Part shown: positions 51,491-55,866 of the stretch, piece after piece
Position numbering within the stretch: the first letter of the stretch is position 1
Layout of the letters: every line of letters begins with the position of its first letter
Assembly: GCF_048403405.1 (NCBI RefSeq)
Contig: NZ_CP183129.1
Length of the DNA: 64,000 nt
Source: Escherichia coli
GTDB taxonomy: Bacteria > Pseudomonadota > Gammaproteobacteria > Enterobacterales > Enterobacteriaceae
Reading direction: 5' to 3' (one strand)
Translations under genes and position numbers: made by a program
The notes under the pieces: generated by a model
Databases searched by the model: none
Seen by the model: only the letters and a program-made list of their open reading frames with translations
Told to the model about the DNA's origin: nothing

Positions 51491-52319
51491 GGTTTACCCC
51501 CTTGCTGACTGGTTTAACCTGCGCCCTGACGTGATTTACGTGACGGGCGAATTTCTGCTCCCACTGAATCTGCGTAAACACTTTCCCCTCCGCTGCCCAG
51601 TAGTCCCGGAAGGCGGCAAGTTCAGCAGGTGTAAATTCTGTCTCCGGCAAAGCCATCCCCCACAACGCAGCCCGTCGTCGAAAATCCCGTGACGGATACC
51701 AGCTATCGGTCATCGGAAATTTTCCGATGGGTTCGCTCAGGCCATCCAGGAATACAAGGGGTGCTGCCTGTAACGACAAAACTTCCTGCTCACTGGTCGG
51801 AGCACTCTCGCGTGCGTTATGTGTGGGGTTTAGATCTTTGGGTTCCTTTGGGTTCCGTGATCCGTTTTTGGGTGTCTTTGATGGAAAATTTGGGTGTCTT
51901 TGGTTATTTTCCATGCAGCTAAGAGTTCCGTTTTTGGGTCTGTTTTGTGCTGAAACATAACCATTTTCGGTACTGTTTTTATTAACAGCACCAATTTTAC
52001 CCACCTTTAAAGACTCCCGTTTTTGGGTGTATTCAGGCTCGGCAACACTTTCTTCTACACCGATAAGTCGGTACACCACAATTTGCTTTGTTCTGCCTTT
52101 TCTCTCACCGGTATCAACAATTAACCCAATCTCCATCAGGTGTCGTAAGCTGTCCTGCACAGTCTTTTTGTTCAGTTCCGTTACTTCTGCCAGTGCAGAT
52201 ACAGACGGGTATGCACACAAATCGGCACCGCACATATCAGCAAGCCAGGTCAATACAGACTTACTGGATGAACTGCCGGTTTTCACCTTTTTAGCCCATC
52301 GTAGTGCATCGATACTCAT
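51279..52319 (-). CDS. O: replication initiator O-like (N-terminal HTH initiator domain, DnaT-like C-terminus)
   Basis: Start set at MSIDALRWAKK...; iteron repeats embedded in mid-gene. Confidence 0.65.
   Translation of the reverse strand: MSIDALRWAKKVKTGSSSSKSVLTWLADMCGADLCAYPSVSALAEVTELNKKTVQDSLRHLMEIGLIVDTGERKGRTKQIVVYRLIGVEESVAEPEYTQKRESLKVGKIGAVNKNSTENGYVSAQNRPKNGTLSCMENNQRHPNFPSKTPKNGSRNPKEPKDLNPTHNARESAPTSEQEVLSLQAAPLVFLDGLSEPIGKFPMTDSWYPSRDFRRRAALWGMALPETEFTPAELAAFRDYWAAEGKVFTQIQWEQKFARHVNHVRAQVKPVSKGVNHAAAPGGTASRAVQEIRAAREQWERENGFISDGNGLEAVGTHGGGLFEPLDPEERGRTFEALDCTDWRDD
51840..52035. repeat. replication origin iterons inside O gene
   Basis: At least three copies of TCCGTTTTTGGGT(G/C)T plus TTTGGGTTCC repeats and adjacent AT-rich stretch. 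Confidence 0.5.
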
Positions 52320-52842
52320 ACAAACCCCTGGCAGACATTTGTTTATCTGCAAAGTAATATTGATATTGCTGACGATACGCATGCTTGAAAGCAATAGCTT
52401 TTTCTATAAGCTCGTCAGTCTCACGTTCCACAACAGCTGGATCCGCAAAAAGCAGCCCGGACTCCACCACATCGCCATATTCTTTGTTTAATCCGGCGAT
52501 CATGTACGTAATGCTTTTTCCATCACTGATCTCACGATACAACCTGAAATCACTAATTCGGATAGCCTCCATAATTGCCGGAATCAGCGCCGTGAATTTT
52601 TTCCGCTTATCCCTGGTGTCGATAGCTTTCCAGCGTTCGAATATCTTCACCCGGTTAACGCCCAGCGCCCGTTGATCAACCTCGCCATCATTAAACGTGA
52701 CGCGTTGAACATCGATGTTCGGGCGTTCTTTCAGAGCCCAGAATGCTTCCGTGATTAATATCGTCGCTTGCTCCTGTGTCATTCCTGGTCGACATACCCA
52801 GGCATCCAGAGCCTCACAAACCTGTTCAGGGGTGATTTTCAT
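52291..52842 (-). CDS. hypothetical protein (183 aa) in cII position
   Basis: ORF translationally coupled to cro-like gene, upstream of O. Confidence 0.4.
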   Translation of the reverse strand: MKITPEQVCEALDAWVCRPGMTQEQATILITEAFWALKERPNIDVQRVTFNDGEVDQRALGVNRVKIFERWKAIDTRDKRKKFTALIPAIMEAIRISDFRLYREISDGKSITYMIAGLNKEYGDVVESGLLFADPAVVERETDELIEKAIAFKHAYRQQYQYYFADKQMSARGLYEYRCTTMG

Positions 52843-53589: not shown

Positions 53590-53660
53590 GCTTGTGTTTT
53601 TTACATCAAAAAACTTAGGTTTTTCTACACAAAAAGCTTGACCATAATTCTTAGGTTATT
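53590..53660. promoter_or_regulatory. second operator/promoter region (CTTAGG repeats) downstream of repressor gene
   Basis: ACTTAGGTTTTTC ... CTTAGGTTATTC repeats with embedded TTGACC; likely promoter of the dicB-type operon. Confidence 0.45.
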
Positions 53661-53743
53661 CTAAATTCTACTCATCAAGACACCGCACGGTGTTCTCAGC
53701 AAACAGTTCCGCTACCCTGGCGTTAAGGGGAAATGAGGTCAGC

Positions 53744-53896
53744 ATGGATACTATCGATCTTGGCAACAACGAATCTCTGGTATGCGGCGTGTTTCCCAAC
53801 CAGGACGGCACGTTTACCGCGATGACGTATACCAGAAGCAAAACGTTTCAAACTGAAGCTGGCGCGCGTCGCTGGTTAACCAGAAACACTGACTGA
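53744..53896 (+). CDS. small protein, YdfA-like (50 aa)
   Basis: MDTIDLGNNESLVCGVFPNQDGTFTAM... with GAGG RBS; first gene after repressor as in the Qin dicB operon. Confidence 0.5.
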   Translation: MDTIDLGNNESLVCGVFPNQDGTFTAMTYTRSKTFQTEAGARRWLTRNTD

Positions 53897-53907
53897 TGAG
53901 GTTGACG

Positions 53908-54282
53908 ATGGAATTTAAAGATTTACCAGTACCATTCCAGGAAATGGCATCGAATGTGGTTCGCTCTCAACTGGCGACTCTTGACCTGAGTACCGTAGAA
54001 AAAGAAACCATCGATACTATATCCGGTAACGTGCGTCGTGCCTTTATCGGTCTGTACGAAGAGAAGCAGCTCTCTGATAACCAGGATTTACATGAAAAAT
54101 ACTTCCTGGAATTAATGGACATCATTAATAAAGGATTTGGCTTGTTAATGAAAAAGAAAGGGATTCGAATAGCTCCCCTTGAAAATCATTTTACAGCGAG
54201 CAGTATTAATTCCTGTGATTTAAAGCATCACACATCCGATGGGAAAGTTGAATCAAACAACAAAATATCAATTAATCATTAA
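53908..54282 (+). CDS. hypothetical protein (124 aa), AT-rich
   Basis: ORF with GAGG RBS before MEFKDL; no family recognised. Confidence 0.45.
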   Translation: MEFKDLPVPFQEMASNVVRSQLATLDLSTVEKETIDTISGNVRRAFIGLYEEKQLSDNQDLHEKYFLELMDIINKGFGLLMKKKGIRIAPLENHFTASSINSCDLKHHTSDGKVESNNKISINH

Positions 54283-54584
54283 TTTATTCACAGGTGAGGT
54301 AGAGTGCGTGCGCCGGACACGGATAAGAATCCGGCACTGACAGTTTACTAAAAAGGATATATCCCTGAAAAGTCAGGGCATAACACGAAAGCGCCCGGCG
54401 AAGTTAGTCTCTCTGTATAGGTCGTCGTTAAATTTAATTCGATCGTGCGCTTCCGGTTGTGGCAATCCGCGAAATGGCGCGGCGGTAAGTATGGCTGGGG
54501 TTTCCTCCATTGCTCCAGAAAATGCACCGGGTTGTCAGGTTGACCATACGCTTAAGTGACAGCCCCGCCACAATACCCATGTGT

Positions 54585-54637
54585 AGTCTTTGGTGGCATC
54601 AGTTCTACTCCGTGACTGCTCTGCCACCCTTTTTAAA
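54585..54637 (+). ncRNA. dicF: DicF-like small RNA (3' stem-loop/terminator region conserved)
   Basis: TTTGGTGGCATCAGTTCTACTCCGTGACTGCTCTGCCACCCTTTTT closely matches recalled DicF 3' portion, with compensatory stem changes GGCGG/CCGCC to GGTGG/CCACC. Confidence 0.55.
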
Positions 54638-54812
54638 GTGAATTTTGTGATGCGGTGAATGCGGCTAAGCGCACGCGGAACAGTTAAAACCAAAAACAGT
54701 GTTATGGGTGGATTCTCTGTATCCGGCGTTAATTGTTAACTGGTTAACGTCACCTGGAGGCACCAGGCACCGCATCAACAAAGTTCACTTCGGTGATGAA
54801 AGGTAAGAGAAA

Positions 54813-55667
54813 ATGTTGAATGTAGCTATTGAAAACCAGAACGGGTGGAATTATAGTGCACCTGCACCTCATAAAACGGGTGCCGGGCGTGGAAACCCGG
54901 AATTCAATCAAGCGCATAACCGCGCTCAGGCGGTTTTTTTATGCGTCAAGCACAGCCACATTCAGATTATGGTGGGGCGTGCAGGGCAGCTGCAAGGCTG
55001 GCCGGATTCTTGGTTGACCGGTATTTCCACCCCTGTACGCCTCACCACCCTTATGGTCGTGGAAAACCTTGGTGGTGAGTTATTAATACTCAACCAAGAG
55101 GCTGCCATTATGGCTACTATCCCTACCCTTTCTCACCCTGACGTAACCATCGAAAATGGTCGCGCTGTCACTACGTCTGTTGCGGTTGCAGAGTTCTTCC
55201 GCAAAATGCACAAGGACGTTCTGCGCAAAATTGAAACGCTAGAATGCTCTGAAGATTTTAACGAGCGCAATTTTACGCCCGTTACCTACACCGACGCCAA
55301 AGGCGAAAAACGCCCCATGTACCAAATCACCAAAAACGGCTTCGTTTTCCTGGTGATGGGGTTCACAGGTAAAAAAGCCGCAACTTTCAAAGAAGCCTAC
55401 ATCGCTGAGTTCGATCGCATGGAGGAAGAACTGCGCCAGAATAACGCCCCGTCTCCCGACAAAATGATTCACGGGGACGGACGCACCCTGGTTATCCGTC
55501 TCGACGAACACGGCAATATCAAATTCACTGAAACCGTTCCTGACGGCGCAATGGTCTGCACCCTGGATACCTTCCGGTTTTATCTGGAGAAACAAGGATG
55601 GACTCTTGTAAACCGGAGCGCAATTAAAAATATGACTGTGGAGCAATTGCTAAAAATTCATTGTTGA
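54813..55667 (+). CDS. Rha-family phage regulatory protein (possible antirepressor); start uncertain
   Basis: C-terminal 185 aa carry Rha-like motifs (AVAEFF.K.H..VLR.I ... MGFTGKKA..FKEAYI.EFDRMEEEL); alternative start at 55110. Confidence 0.65.
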   Translation: MLNVAIENQNGWNYSAPAPHKTGAGRGNPEFNQAHNRAQAVFLCVKHSHIQIMVGRAGQLQGWPDSWLTGISTPVRLTTLMVVENLGGELLILNQEAAIMATIPTLSHPDVTIENGRAVTTSVAVAEFFRKMHKDVLRKIETLECSEDFNERNFTPVTYTDAKGEKRPMYQITKNGFVFLVMGFTGKKAATFKEAYIAEFDRMEEELRQNNAPSPDKMIHGDGRTLVIRLDEHGNIKFTETVPDGAMVCTLDTFRFYLEKQGWTLVNRSAIKNMTVEQLLKIHC

Positions 55668-55677
55668 GGACGCGATA

Positions 55678-55866
55678 ATGGAAACGTCACTACCAAACGT
55701 TAATACGTCTGACGGGTGCTTTAATATTGGTGTTCTGCTCAGTAACAGGGATTTCACCGAGGATGCAATCAATATGAGAAAATATGAACCCTACCTGCTG
55801 AATGACAATTCCATACTCTCCAGAATTGCCCTTCTTAAACTCGGTATTTTCGGAGAGTGGCGATGA
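55678..55866 (+). CDS. dicB: DicB-like cell division inhibitor (62 aa)
   Basis: LPNVNTSDGCFNIGV..SN..FTEDAINMRK matches recalled DicB; follows DicF-like RNA. Confidence 0.7.
   Translation: METSLPNVNTSDGCFNIGVLLSNRDFTEDAINMRKYEPYLLNDNSILSRIALLKLGIFGEWR

What the first reader, a model, noticed from the sequence alone, without database searches (positions are those of the whole stretch)
53908..54282. Unrecognised AT-rich 124-aa ORF inserted in the dicB-type operon
Between the ydfA-like gene and the DicF-like RNA, where Qin carries ydfB/ydfC, there is a single AT-rich ORF with a good RBS and no recognisable family. It lies directly downstream of the repressor-side operator/promoter, so it could be expressed on derepression with the division-inhibition genes, or at a low level in lysogens. 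Such operator-adjacent cargo is a common home for exclusion or host-takeover functions.
Basis: partly seen in the sequence, partly recalled or inferred. Interest (0 to 1): 0.5.

Follow-up and report, generated by a model that had tools for sequence, protein, structure and literature searches.

The report
Uncharacterised small prophage early-operon gene
This is a real, conserved 124-residue prophage gene of unknown function in the repressor-controlled dicBF-type operon of an E. coli Qin-like prophage; it belongs to a small Enterobacteriaceae-only family with a fixed two-helix N-terminal module and swappable C-terminal ends, so it is ordinary prophage cargo.

Summary
The ORF is real. It runs 53908..54282 (+), with GAGG 6 nt upstream of the ATG, and is 37.9% GC against 51.2% for the window. 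It lies between a ydfA/DUF1391 gene and the DicF leader.

It is not a diverged ydfB or ydfC. BLASTP and hhalign find no similarity. In other E. coli prophages the same gene follows ydfA-ydfB-ydfC in one operon. RefSeq already lists it as WP_000394557.1, "hypothetical protein", and it matches PHROG 6937 (unknown function). At least 80% of the ORF is present in 722 of 5426 complete E. coli genomes.

Residues 1-53 form a conserved two-helix module ("MEFKDLP...VRxAFxxLY"). This module also occurs alone (50-66 aa) and joined to at least 8 unrelated C-termini. A third helix and a disordered tail follow it.

Pfam, NCBIfam, PADLOC, PDB, and Foldseek against PDB, AFDB50 and BFVD find nothing outside the family. 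dN/dS of 0.2-0.7 supports translation.

Most likely reading: a soluble, non-essential early accessory protein, co-transcribed from the DicA-repressed dicBp-type promoter with DicF and DicB, acting by protein binding. The target is unknown.

Related loci carry a convergent small ORF just downstream; this window lacks it.

Interest is modest.

The parts
53908..54282 (+). ORF124 coding sequence (124 aa, stop included); identical to RefSeq WP_000394557.1; PHROG 6937
   Evidence: dN/dS below 1; chance of an open frame about 1e-4
53898..53901 (+). Shine-Dalgarno GAGG, 6 nt upstream of ATG 53908. An alternative ATG at 53896 overlaps the ydfA stop codon.
   Evidence: read; UniProt B7NB09 uses the longer 128-aa form
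53908..54066 (+). N-terminal module (aa 1-53): conserved two-helix hairpin, MEFKDLP..Q..A....L....KE......NVR.AF..LY; 45% GC
   Evidence: alignments; PHROGs 1363, 2151 and 9419 match only residues 1-53 to 1-63; AF2 pLDDT about 89 with helices 8-23 and 32-55; standalone 50-66 aa forms and a 52-aa protein of phage phi191
54067..54282 (+). C-terminal module (aa 54-124): third helix (aa 59-84, pLDDT about 65) plus a predicted disordered tail (aa 90-124); 32% GC. This part is swapped between family members.
   Evidence: (breakpoints at about nt 113, 160, 180, 244, 317)
53638..53667 (+). dicBp-like sigma-70 promoter (TTGACC-18-TAAATT) with repeated CTTAGGTT.TTCTA operator-like motifs. It is the inferred start of the ydfA-ORF124-dicF transcript.
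   Evidence: aligns with K-12 dicBp; operon biology from PMC10448788
53130..53537 (+). DicA-like HTH repressor (135 aa), 63% identical to K-12 DicA
53744..53896 (+). ydfA-like gene (DUF1391), first gene of the operon
54289..54577 (+). Conserved untranslated leader/precursor upstream of DicF, 82-86% identical to K-12 and other prophages. It starts 6 nt after the ORF124 stop codon.
   Evidence: for the K-12 sequence
54578..54629 (+). DicF sRNA
   Evidence: Rfam RF00039, 61.1 bits, E 3.7e-12
55678..55866 (+). Intact dicB, the downstream division inhibitor of the same operon

Best explanation
Shown: ORF124 is a genuine protein-coding accessory gene of a Qin/lambdoid-type E. coli prophage. It is the second gene of the DicA-type-repressed early-left (dicBF-type) operon, between ydfA and the DicF precursor leader. 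It belongs to a small family restricted to Enterobacteriaceae prophages and phages (PHROG 6937). The family has a conserved N-terminal two-helix module of about 53 residues and interchangeable C-terminal modules. It is unrelated to YdfB and YdfC and can coexist with them.

Inferred from operon homology: it is co-transcribed from the dicBp-like promoter on the same polycistronic RNA that yields DicF. It would therefore be made only when the DicA-like repressor is relieved, by an antirepressor, by stochastic switching or in stationary phase. That is the same time at which DicF and DicB are made.

Inferred from protein features and least certain: it is a soluble cytoplasmic helical protein acting by protein-protein binding on a host or competing-phage target. 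The conserved hairpin would be the common scaffold, oligomerisation or docking element. The variable C-terminal helix would give target specificity, and the disordered tail would be dispensable. It is non-essential cargo, since the slot is empty in K-12 Qin.
For: Gene reality: RBS and open frame; the exact protein is on at least 1000 contigs; 722 of 5426 complete genomes carry at least 80% of it; dN/dS 0.20-0.69 with the frame intact up to dS about 0.8.

Family and modularity: PHROG 6937 matches full length at E 1.3e-76, and PHROGs 1363, 2151 and 9419 match the N-terminus only. In 1.84 billion representatives there are 68 clusters, nearly all matching from residue 1. Distinct C-termini are seen.

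Independence from ydfB/ydfC.

Conserved position: it lies after the repressor/ydfA and before dicF/dicB or kilR in E. coli loci and in loci of more distant family members, one a Salmonella enterica assembly.

Promoter, operator and repressor homology. No terminator is predicted between the promoter and DicF. In K-12 a ydfABC-dicF polycistronic transcript from dicBp is repressed by DicA (PMC10448788).

Protein features: no transmembrane segment (maximum Kyte-Doolittle 19-residue window 0.51), pI 5.9; three helices and a disordered tail. The extreme tail changes with whichever downstream cassette is present.
Against: There is no experimental or homology-based evidence for any activity, partner or phenotype. 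Pfam, NCBIfam, PADLOC and PDB by sequence and profile find nothing, and Foldseek against PDB, AFDB50 and BFVD finds only family members.

The AF2 model is confident only for residues 1-50. Transcription and translation were not measured. dN/dS in the N-module is high for some pairs (up to 1.24), which may reflect mosaicism or relaxed constraint. The scaffold-plus-specificity reading of the modular architecture is an analogy, not a test.
Confidence: 0.55

Rival explanations
1. Superinfection-exclusion or anti-phage defence cargo. ORF124 would protect the lysogen against other phages, possibly through low-level expression in the repressed state.
For: It lies in an immunity-region operon where DicB already confers phage resistance (PMC6832061). 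Its composition is AT-rich and looks foreign. Variable C-termini suggest an arms race. Related prophages carry other cargo, such as PaaA2-ParE, in the same promoter-proximal region.
Against: No PADLOC match. No separate promoter is predicted in front of it, only the dicBp-like promoter upstream of ydfA. In K-12 the operon-level phage protection was attributed to DicB. There is no membrane segment of the kind seen in many exclusion proteins.
Confidence: 0.15
2. Orphaned half of a two-gene convergent module. In many relatives a small ORF on the opposite strand (57-92 aa) overlaps the 3' end of the gene. ORF124 may act only with, or be counteracted by, such a partner (toxin/antidote-like or mutually antisense-regulated). 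In this window it would be a solitary remnant.
For: Convergent (-) ORFs with an identical strong RBS junction (CTCAGGAGGGTGAAATG on the - strand) occur in L004-L008. Distant members L014 and L015 also have a convergent overlapping ORF. The C-terminal tail type covaries with the (-) cassette type.
Against: The solo arrangement is the commonest for this allele: 460 genomes carry the window-type junction against 87 with the 73-aa partner, and the frame stays intact. The (-) ORFs are mutually unrelated and fall in different PHROGs, all of unknown function. The same C-module (aa 54 to about 100) is found with different (-) cassettes, so the covariation is explained by physical overlap of a swapped cassette.
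Confidence: 0.15
3. Functionless hitch-hiker: an open frame kept only because it sits between selected elements (ydfA and dicF/dicB) in a frequently recombining region, making no useful protein.
For: The slot is empty in K-12 Qin without obvious consequence. The family is narrow, the C-module is low in GC, and the tail is predicted disordered. Some N-module pairs have dN/dS near 1.
Against: dN/dS for the C-module is 0.24-0.50 in all 15 pairs. The frame is intact across alleles down to 63% identity. The RBS is well placed. The N-module is conserved down to about 25% identity in other genera and in functional Stx phages.
Confidence: 0.1
4. Diverged member of the ydfB or ydfC family.
For: Only that it occupies roughly the same region between ydfA and dicF.
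Against: BLASTP finds no significant alignment. hhalign gives probability 0.6% for YdfC and 0.1% for YdfB. It coexists with ydfB and ydfC in one operon and follows ydfC in at least 12 IMG/VR loci. A YdfC-like::N-module fusion protein (P0162) shows the two as separate adjacent units.
Confidence: 0.02

Closest known systems
PHROG 6937, with PHROGs 1363, 2151 and 9419 sharing the N-module; RefSeq WP_000394557.1; UniProt B7NB09
   Same: Full-length match to PHROG 6937 at E 1.3e-76. Identical protein in RefSeq and UniProt. Same position in prophage early operons.
   Different: None in sequence. The whole family is annotated "unknown function", so membership gives no mechanism.
YdfA, YdfB and YdfC, the promoter-proximal small proteins of the K-12 Qin dicBF operon
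   Same: Small proteins of unknown function encoded between dicBp and dicF and co-transcribed with DicF (PMC5069750, PMC10448788).
   Different: No sequence or profile similarity to YdfB or YdfC. ORF124 is a separate gene that can sit downstream of ydfC and is absent from K-12.
Small early-left (PL-operon) accessory proteins of lambdoid phages: Kil/KilR, DicB, CIII, Gam, Ral
   Same: Small, non-essential, mostly helical proteins made only on derepression, encoded next to division inhibitors, and acting by binding host proteins. This comparison rests on general knowledge of lambda biology and is by context only.
   Different: No homology to any of them; all PHROG hits are to unannotated families. 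No target is known. ORF124 has a modular structure, with a conserved N-terminus and a swappable C-terminus, not described for those proteins.
Polymorphic or modular effectors with a constant N-terminus, a variable C-terminus and a cognate neighbouring gene
   Same: A conserved N-module joined to many unrelated C-termini, often with a variable small gene immediately downstream.
   Different: The downstream gene is convergent rather than co-directional. It is absent in this window and in most carriers of this allele. No toxin or immunity domain was recognised.

Membership tests
PHROG 6937 / MEFKDLP-module family | Full-length profile match | tested here: met
   E 1.3e-76, residues 1-124 on profile positions 1-124 of 124
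PHROG 6937 / MEFKDLP-module family | N-terminal motif M-E-F-K-D-L-P ... Q..A ... NVR.AF..LY forming a two-helix hairpin | tested here: met
   Invariant or near-invariant columns M1, L6, P7, Q11, A14, F46, L49, Y50; AF2 helices 8-23 and 32-55 with pLDDT about 89
PHROG 6937 / MEFKDLP-module family | Location in the repressor-proximal early operon of lambdoid prophages | tested here: met
   Exceptions: Stx phage PA2, where it lies further down the early-left region, and L015, where it lies before lysis genes
YdfB | Sequence similarity to K-12 YdfB (42 aa) | tested here: not met
   BLASTP finds no alignment; hhalign probability 0.1%; coexists with ydfB
YdfC | Sequence similarity to K-12 YdfC (72 aa) | tested here: not met
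   BLASTP E 1.6 over 14 residues; hhalign probability 0.6%; coexists with ydfC
Known anti-phage defence systems (PADLOC-DB v2) | Match to any defence-protein model | tested here: not met
   0 families at E up to 1
Toxin-antitoxin pair | Adjacent cognate partner gene | tested here: not met
   Only 6 nt separate the ORF stop from the dicF leader in the window. The solo arrangement is found in 460 genomes.
Toxin-antitoxin pair | Toxicity relieved by the partner | not testable with these tools
   Needs expression experiments
Pfam, NCBIfam or structurally characterised folds | Significant profile or fold match | tested here: not met
   Pfam; NCBIfam; PDB by sequence and profile; Foldseek against PDB, AFDB50 and BFVD finds only family members
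dicBF-type operon member (co-transcribed with DicF) | Lies between a DicA-repressed dicBp-type promoter and dicF, on the same strand, with no intervening terminator | tested here: met
   Promoter 53638-53667 aligns with K-12 dicBp; DicF at 54578-54629; no terminator predicted between them
dicBF-type operon member (co-transcribed with DicF) | Transcript actually spans the gene and is DicA-repressed | not testable with these tools
   Shown only for K-12 ydfABC-dicF (PMC10448788)

The most novel reading that the evidence does not exclude
The conserved MEFKDLP hairpin, its many swappable C-terminal modules and the variable convergent small ORFs plugged in at a fixed RBS junction together mark a previously undescribed diversity hotspot in the dicBF-type early operon. 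Under this reading the family would be modular conflict effectors, for example anti-defence or inter-phage interference proteins, with a fold of their own. ORF124 would be one allele that works without a partner.
Probability: 0.15. Interest if true: 0.6.

Novelty: new member of a known kind. Interest (0 to 1): 0.3.

Why it matters
[quoted passage not shown] Yet its promoter-proximal small proteins remain uncharacterised. About 13% of complete E. coli genomes, including O157:H7 and ExPEC strains, carry this extra gene in that operon. About 25% carry its N-terminal module.

If the protein has an activity, it would be released together with DicF and DicB whenever the operon switches on. It could then contribute to phenotypes now attributed to those two products in non-K-12 strains.

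The modular structure also offers a tidy experiment: a fixed hairpin with exchangeable C-termini can be tested for how small phage proteins diversify. As it stands, however, this is a catalogued hypothetical protein with no functional lead, so the immediate value is modest.

Tried and rejected
1. Chance ORF: rejected. Only 0.012% of shuffles stay open, and the ORF is conserved with dN/dS below 1.

2. Diverged ydfB/ydfC: rejected.

3. Homology to any characterised family: nothing found. Pfam was searched with the single sequence and with the 44-sequence alignment. NCBIfam, PADLOC, and PDB by phmmer and by profile (the best hit, Clr1, has E 0.052 and was not considered meaningful) gave nothing.

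4. Fold comparison with the better AF2 model (pLDDT 67.6 overall, about 89 for residues 1-50). Foldseek against PDB has no hit below E 1. AFDB50 returns only family members, one named "Ybl81". BFVD returns only a 52-aa protein of phage phi191.

5. Exhaustive profile search of 1.84 billion representatives: 68 clusters. Apart from two short proteins that look like fragments of the family (P0088, P0095), the C-module has no relatives outside this family.

6. Literature searches for MEFKDLP, ybl81 and DUF1391 returned nothing useful. The dicBF papers describe ydfABC only as unknown.

7. Toxin/antidote pairing with the convergent ORF seen in relatives: considered and downgraded. The solo form is commonest and the cassettes swap independently. 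The (-) ORFs themselves match only PHROGs of unknown function.

8. A paralog elsewhere in the window: none found by tblastn.

9. An RNA element inside the ORF: no Rfam hit in 53908-54282 at E up to 1.

Full report
**Observation**

The window holds an open reading frame from ATG 53908 to the TAA ending at 54282, on the + strand, encoding 124 aa. A GAGG at 53898-53901 lies 6 nt upstream of the start codon.

A second in-frame ATG at 53896 overlaps the ydfA stop codon (TGATG) and would add four residues, MRLT. UniProt B7NB09 uses that longer form. Every family alignment begins at MEFKDLP, including loci where the upstream gene is ydfC rather than ydfA. So 53908 is the conserved start.

The ORF is 37.9% GC against 51.2% for the window. 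Its 5' half is 45.1% GC and its 3' half 32.4%. Only 0.012% of shuffles of its 372 nt remain open.

- A ydfA/DUF1391 gene at 53744-53896, matching PHROG 751 and 92.6% identical in DNA to K-12 ydfA.
- DicF at 54578-54629, matching Rfam at 61 bits against a gathering score of 48.

**Where the window comes from**

The 1.1-kb stretch around the ORF is 100% identical in many complete E. coli chromosomes. There PGAP annotates the ORF as WP_000394557.1, "hypothetical protein". The exact protein is on at least 1000 contigs.

The gene order, left to right in window coordinates (strand in brackets), is:
1. Cro-like (-)
2. DicA-like repressor (+), 63% identical to K-12 DicA
3. ydfA (+)
4. ORF124 (+)
5. 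dicF leader (+)
6. DicF (+)
7. an inserted RNA/Rha cassette (+)
8. dicB (+)
9. DUF1482/ydfD-like (+)
10. exonuclease (+)

**Not a ydfB or ydfC derivative**

K-12 Qin has ydfB (42 aa) and ydfC (72 aa) between ydfA and the dicF leader.
- BLASTP of ORF124 against both finds nothing.
- Profile comparison with a 44-sequence family alignment gives probabilities of 0.1% for YdfB and 0.6% for YdfC.
- In strain B2C the operon reads ydfA, ydfB, ydfC, an ORF124 homolog (87.7% DNA identity), dicF leader, dicB, ydfD. This is the decisive point.
- Among 80 IMG/VR loci the window-type allele follows ydfA directly in at least 20 and follows ydfC in at least 12.
- One database protein, P0162, is a YdfC-like::N-module fusion.

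ORF124 is therefore an independent gene with its own slot immediately upstream of the dicF leader. This prophage lacks ydfB and ydfC, and K-12 lacks ORF124.

**The family**

ORF124 matches PHROG 6937 over its full length at E 1.3e-76. Residues 1 to about 63 also match PHROGs 1363, 2151 and 9419. All four are of unknown function.

Word-indexed and exhaustive HMM searches find only Escherichia, Shigella and Salmonella hypothetical proteins. There are just 68 clusters at 50% identity among 1.84 billion representatives, and nearly all matches start at residue 1.

The shared unit is residues 1-53, with conserved M1, L6, P7, Q11, A14, F46, L49 and Y50. It occurs in three forms:
- Alone, as 50-66 aa proteins, including a 52-aa protein of Stx phage phi191.
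- Joined to at least 8 unrelated C-termini, giving proteins of 101-208 aa.
- In ORF124 and its close alleles.

In complete E. coli genomes, 722 of 5426 carry at least 80% of ORF124, and 1356 carry at least the 5' module. Recombination breakpoints fall at about nt 113, 160, 180, 244 and 317. The drop in GC content at the module boundary fits this mosaic structure.

**Protein features**

AlphaFold2 with the 44-sequence alignment gives:
- helices at 8-23 and 32-55, with pLDDT about 89;
- a third helix at 59-84, with pLDDT about 65;
- a disordered tail at 90-124, with pLDDT below 50.

A first model built on a shallower alignment was poorer but had the same topology. There is no transmembrane segment, and the pI is 5.9.

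No search connects the protein to anything outside its own family:
- Pfam
- NCBIfam
- PADLOC
- PDB by sequence and by profile
- Foldseek against PDB, AFDB50 and BFVD

**Evidence that it is translated**

Six alleles spanning dS up to about 0.8 keep the frame. Pairwise dN/dS is 0.20-0.69 overall. For the C-module it is 0.24-0.50 in all 15 pairs. The N-module is noisier, at 0.05-1.24, probably because it is itself mosaic.

**Expression (inferred)**

A sigma-70-like site at 53638-53667 (TTGACC-18-TAAATT) aligns with K-12 dicBp. It is flanked by repeated CTTAGGTT.TTCTA motifs. No terminator-like site lies between it and DicF.

In K-12, dicBp drives a polycistronic ydfABC-dicF RNA. That transcript is repressed by DicA, relieved by the Rem antirepressor, switches on stochastically, and accumulates in stationary phase (PMC10448788; PMC5069750).

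By homology, ORF124 should be made together with DicF and DicB on derepression. This was not measured.

**The slot and its convergent cassettes**

In the related loci L004-L008 a small ORF on the opposite strand (73-92 aa) lies between the gene's stop codon and the dicF leader. It overlaps the gene's 3' end. There are four mutually unrelated sequences, and on the - strand all begin at the same junction, CTCAGGAGGGTGAAATG. Three of them match PHROGs of unknown function and one matches nothing. Distant family members L014 and L015 also have a convergent overlapping ORF.

The window lacks this ORF. Its stop codon is 6 nt from the leader.

That solo junction occurs in 460 of 5426 genomes. The same allele with the 73-aa partner occurs in 87.

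The extreme C-terminal tail covaries with the cassette type:
- NNKISINH with no cassette
- SHEISINH with the 73-aa ORF
- SFDSK(QEN) with the 91-aa ORF

The core C-module (aa 54 to about 100) is shared across these. I read the covariation as a consequence of physical overlap with a swapped cassette, not as evidence for a functional pair. This also fits the predicted disorder of the tail.

**Mechanism**

I commit to the following, with the last step being the weakest. ORF124 is a soluble, non-essential early accessory protein released on derepression alongside the division inhibitors. It acts by protein binding. The conserved hairpin would serve as a common scaffold, oligomerisation or docking element, and the variable third helix as the specificity element.

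- The identity and context parts are well supported.
- The mode of action rests only on size, predicted structure, modularity and analogy with other small early-left proteins such as Kil, DicB, CIII and Gam. That analogy is general knowledge, not tested here.
- Rivals are exclusion or defence cargo, an orphaned half of a convergent pair, and a functionless hitch-hiker. They are listed with their tests.

**Novelty and score**

The gene is catalogued but uncharacterised. It adds one more member to the known class of small accessory genes in lambdoid early operons.

The modular N-module family and the cassette hotspot are mildly interesting. Neither would strongly surprise a specialist, and neither opens a long-standing question. 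Interest is 0.3.

Noticed in passing
window 54788-55652: Relative to K-12 and strain B2C, an insertion of about 865 bp separates dicF from dicB. It sits 18 nt before the dicB start. It carries an isrK-like sRNA (54864-54940, 69 bits), a C4-type antisense RNA (54965-55052, 78 bits), a weak c4 a1/b1 target hit (54851-54903) and a Rha-family regulator ORF (ATG 55110 to 55667; PGAP calls 54813-55667). This resembles a P1 immI / Gifsy-1 isrK-type antirepressor module embedded in the dicBF operon. Rha genes sit in the equivalent place in L009 and L014.
   Followed up: partly
window 54699-54782: In identical genomes PGAP annotates a partial DicB pseudogene here. The stretch aligns at 95% with the K-12 dicF-dicB spacer (L002 about 3505-3588), upstream of the K-12 dicB start. 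It is probably an annotation artefact rather than a dicB fragment. A sub-threshold STnc100 hit (38 bits against a gathering score of 47) covers 54641-54782.
   Followed up: partly
L005 2865-3086, L006 2799-3074, L007 2862-3140, L008 2886-3119, L004 4386-4619 (all - strand); absent in the window at 54283-54288: Four unrelated small ORFs (73, 91, 92 and 77 aa) are plugged in antisense to the dicBF operon. All share the same junction with an identical strong RBS (AGGAGG-N5-ATG) at the edge of the dicF leader. This is a variable cassette site. The RBS junction or leader edge is present in about 2200 E. coli genomes. The function of these ORFs is unknown.
   Followed up: partly
window 53896-53910: The ydfA stop codon and an upstream in-frame ATG overlap (TGATG), which is a possible translational-coupling start and would give a 128-aa isoform (MRLT-MEFK...). 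UniProt B7NB09 uses this start and PGAP uses 53908.
   Followed up: partly
protein P0162 (149 aa): A single predicted protein fuses a YdfC-like N-terminal half to the MEFKDLP module. This reflects the conserved ydfC-then-module adjacency. Whether it is a real fusion or a frameshift/annotation read-through was not checked.
   Followed up: no
L011/L012 3085-3563: In a related prophage a PaaA2-ParE toxin-antitoxin pair lies between the DicA-like repressor and the DUF1391 gene, and KilR replaces DicB downstream. The promoter-proximal part of this operon type repeatedly accepts cargo.
   Followed up: no
window 52291-52842 (-): A YdaT-toxin-family gene lies immediately downstream of the Cro-like gene on the rightward side of the immunity region. 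It is followed by DnaT-like and lambda-P-like replication genes.
   Followed up: no
window 54283-54310 compared with L005 3080-3140 and K-12 L002 3043-3100: The window lacks the roughly 35 nt (GGTTGGTAATTAAGGAGTTCTC...) that precede the leader in K-12 and in cassette-bearing loci. The sequence TTTATTCAC after the stop codon resembles the CATTTCAC start region of the (-) cassettes. The window junction may therefore be a deletion derivative of a cassette-bearing ancestor. This is unresolved.
   Followed up: no
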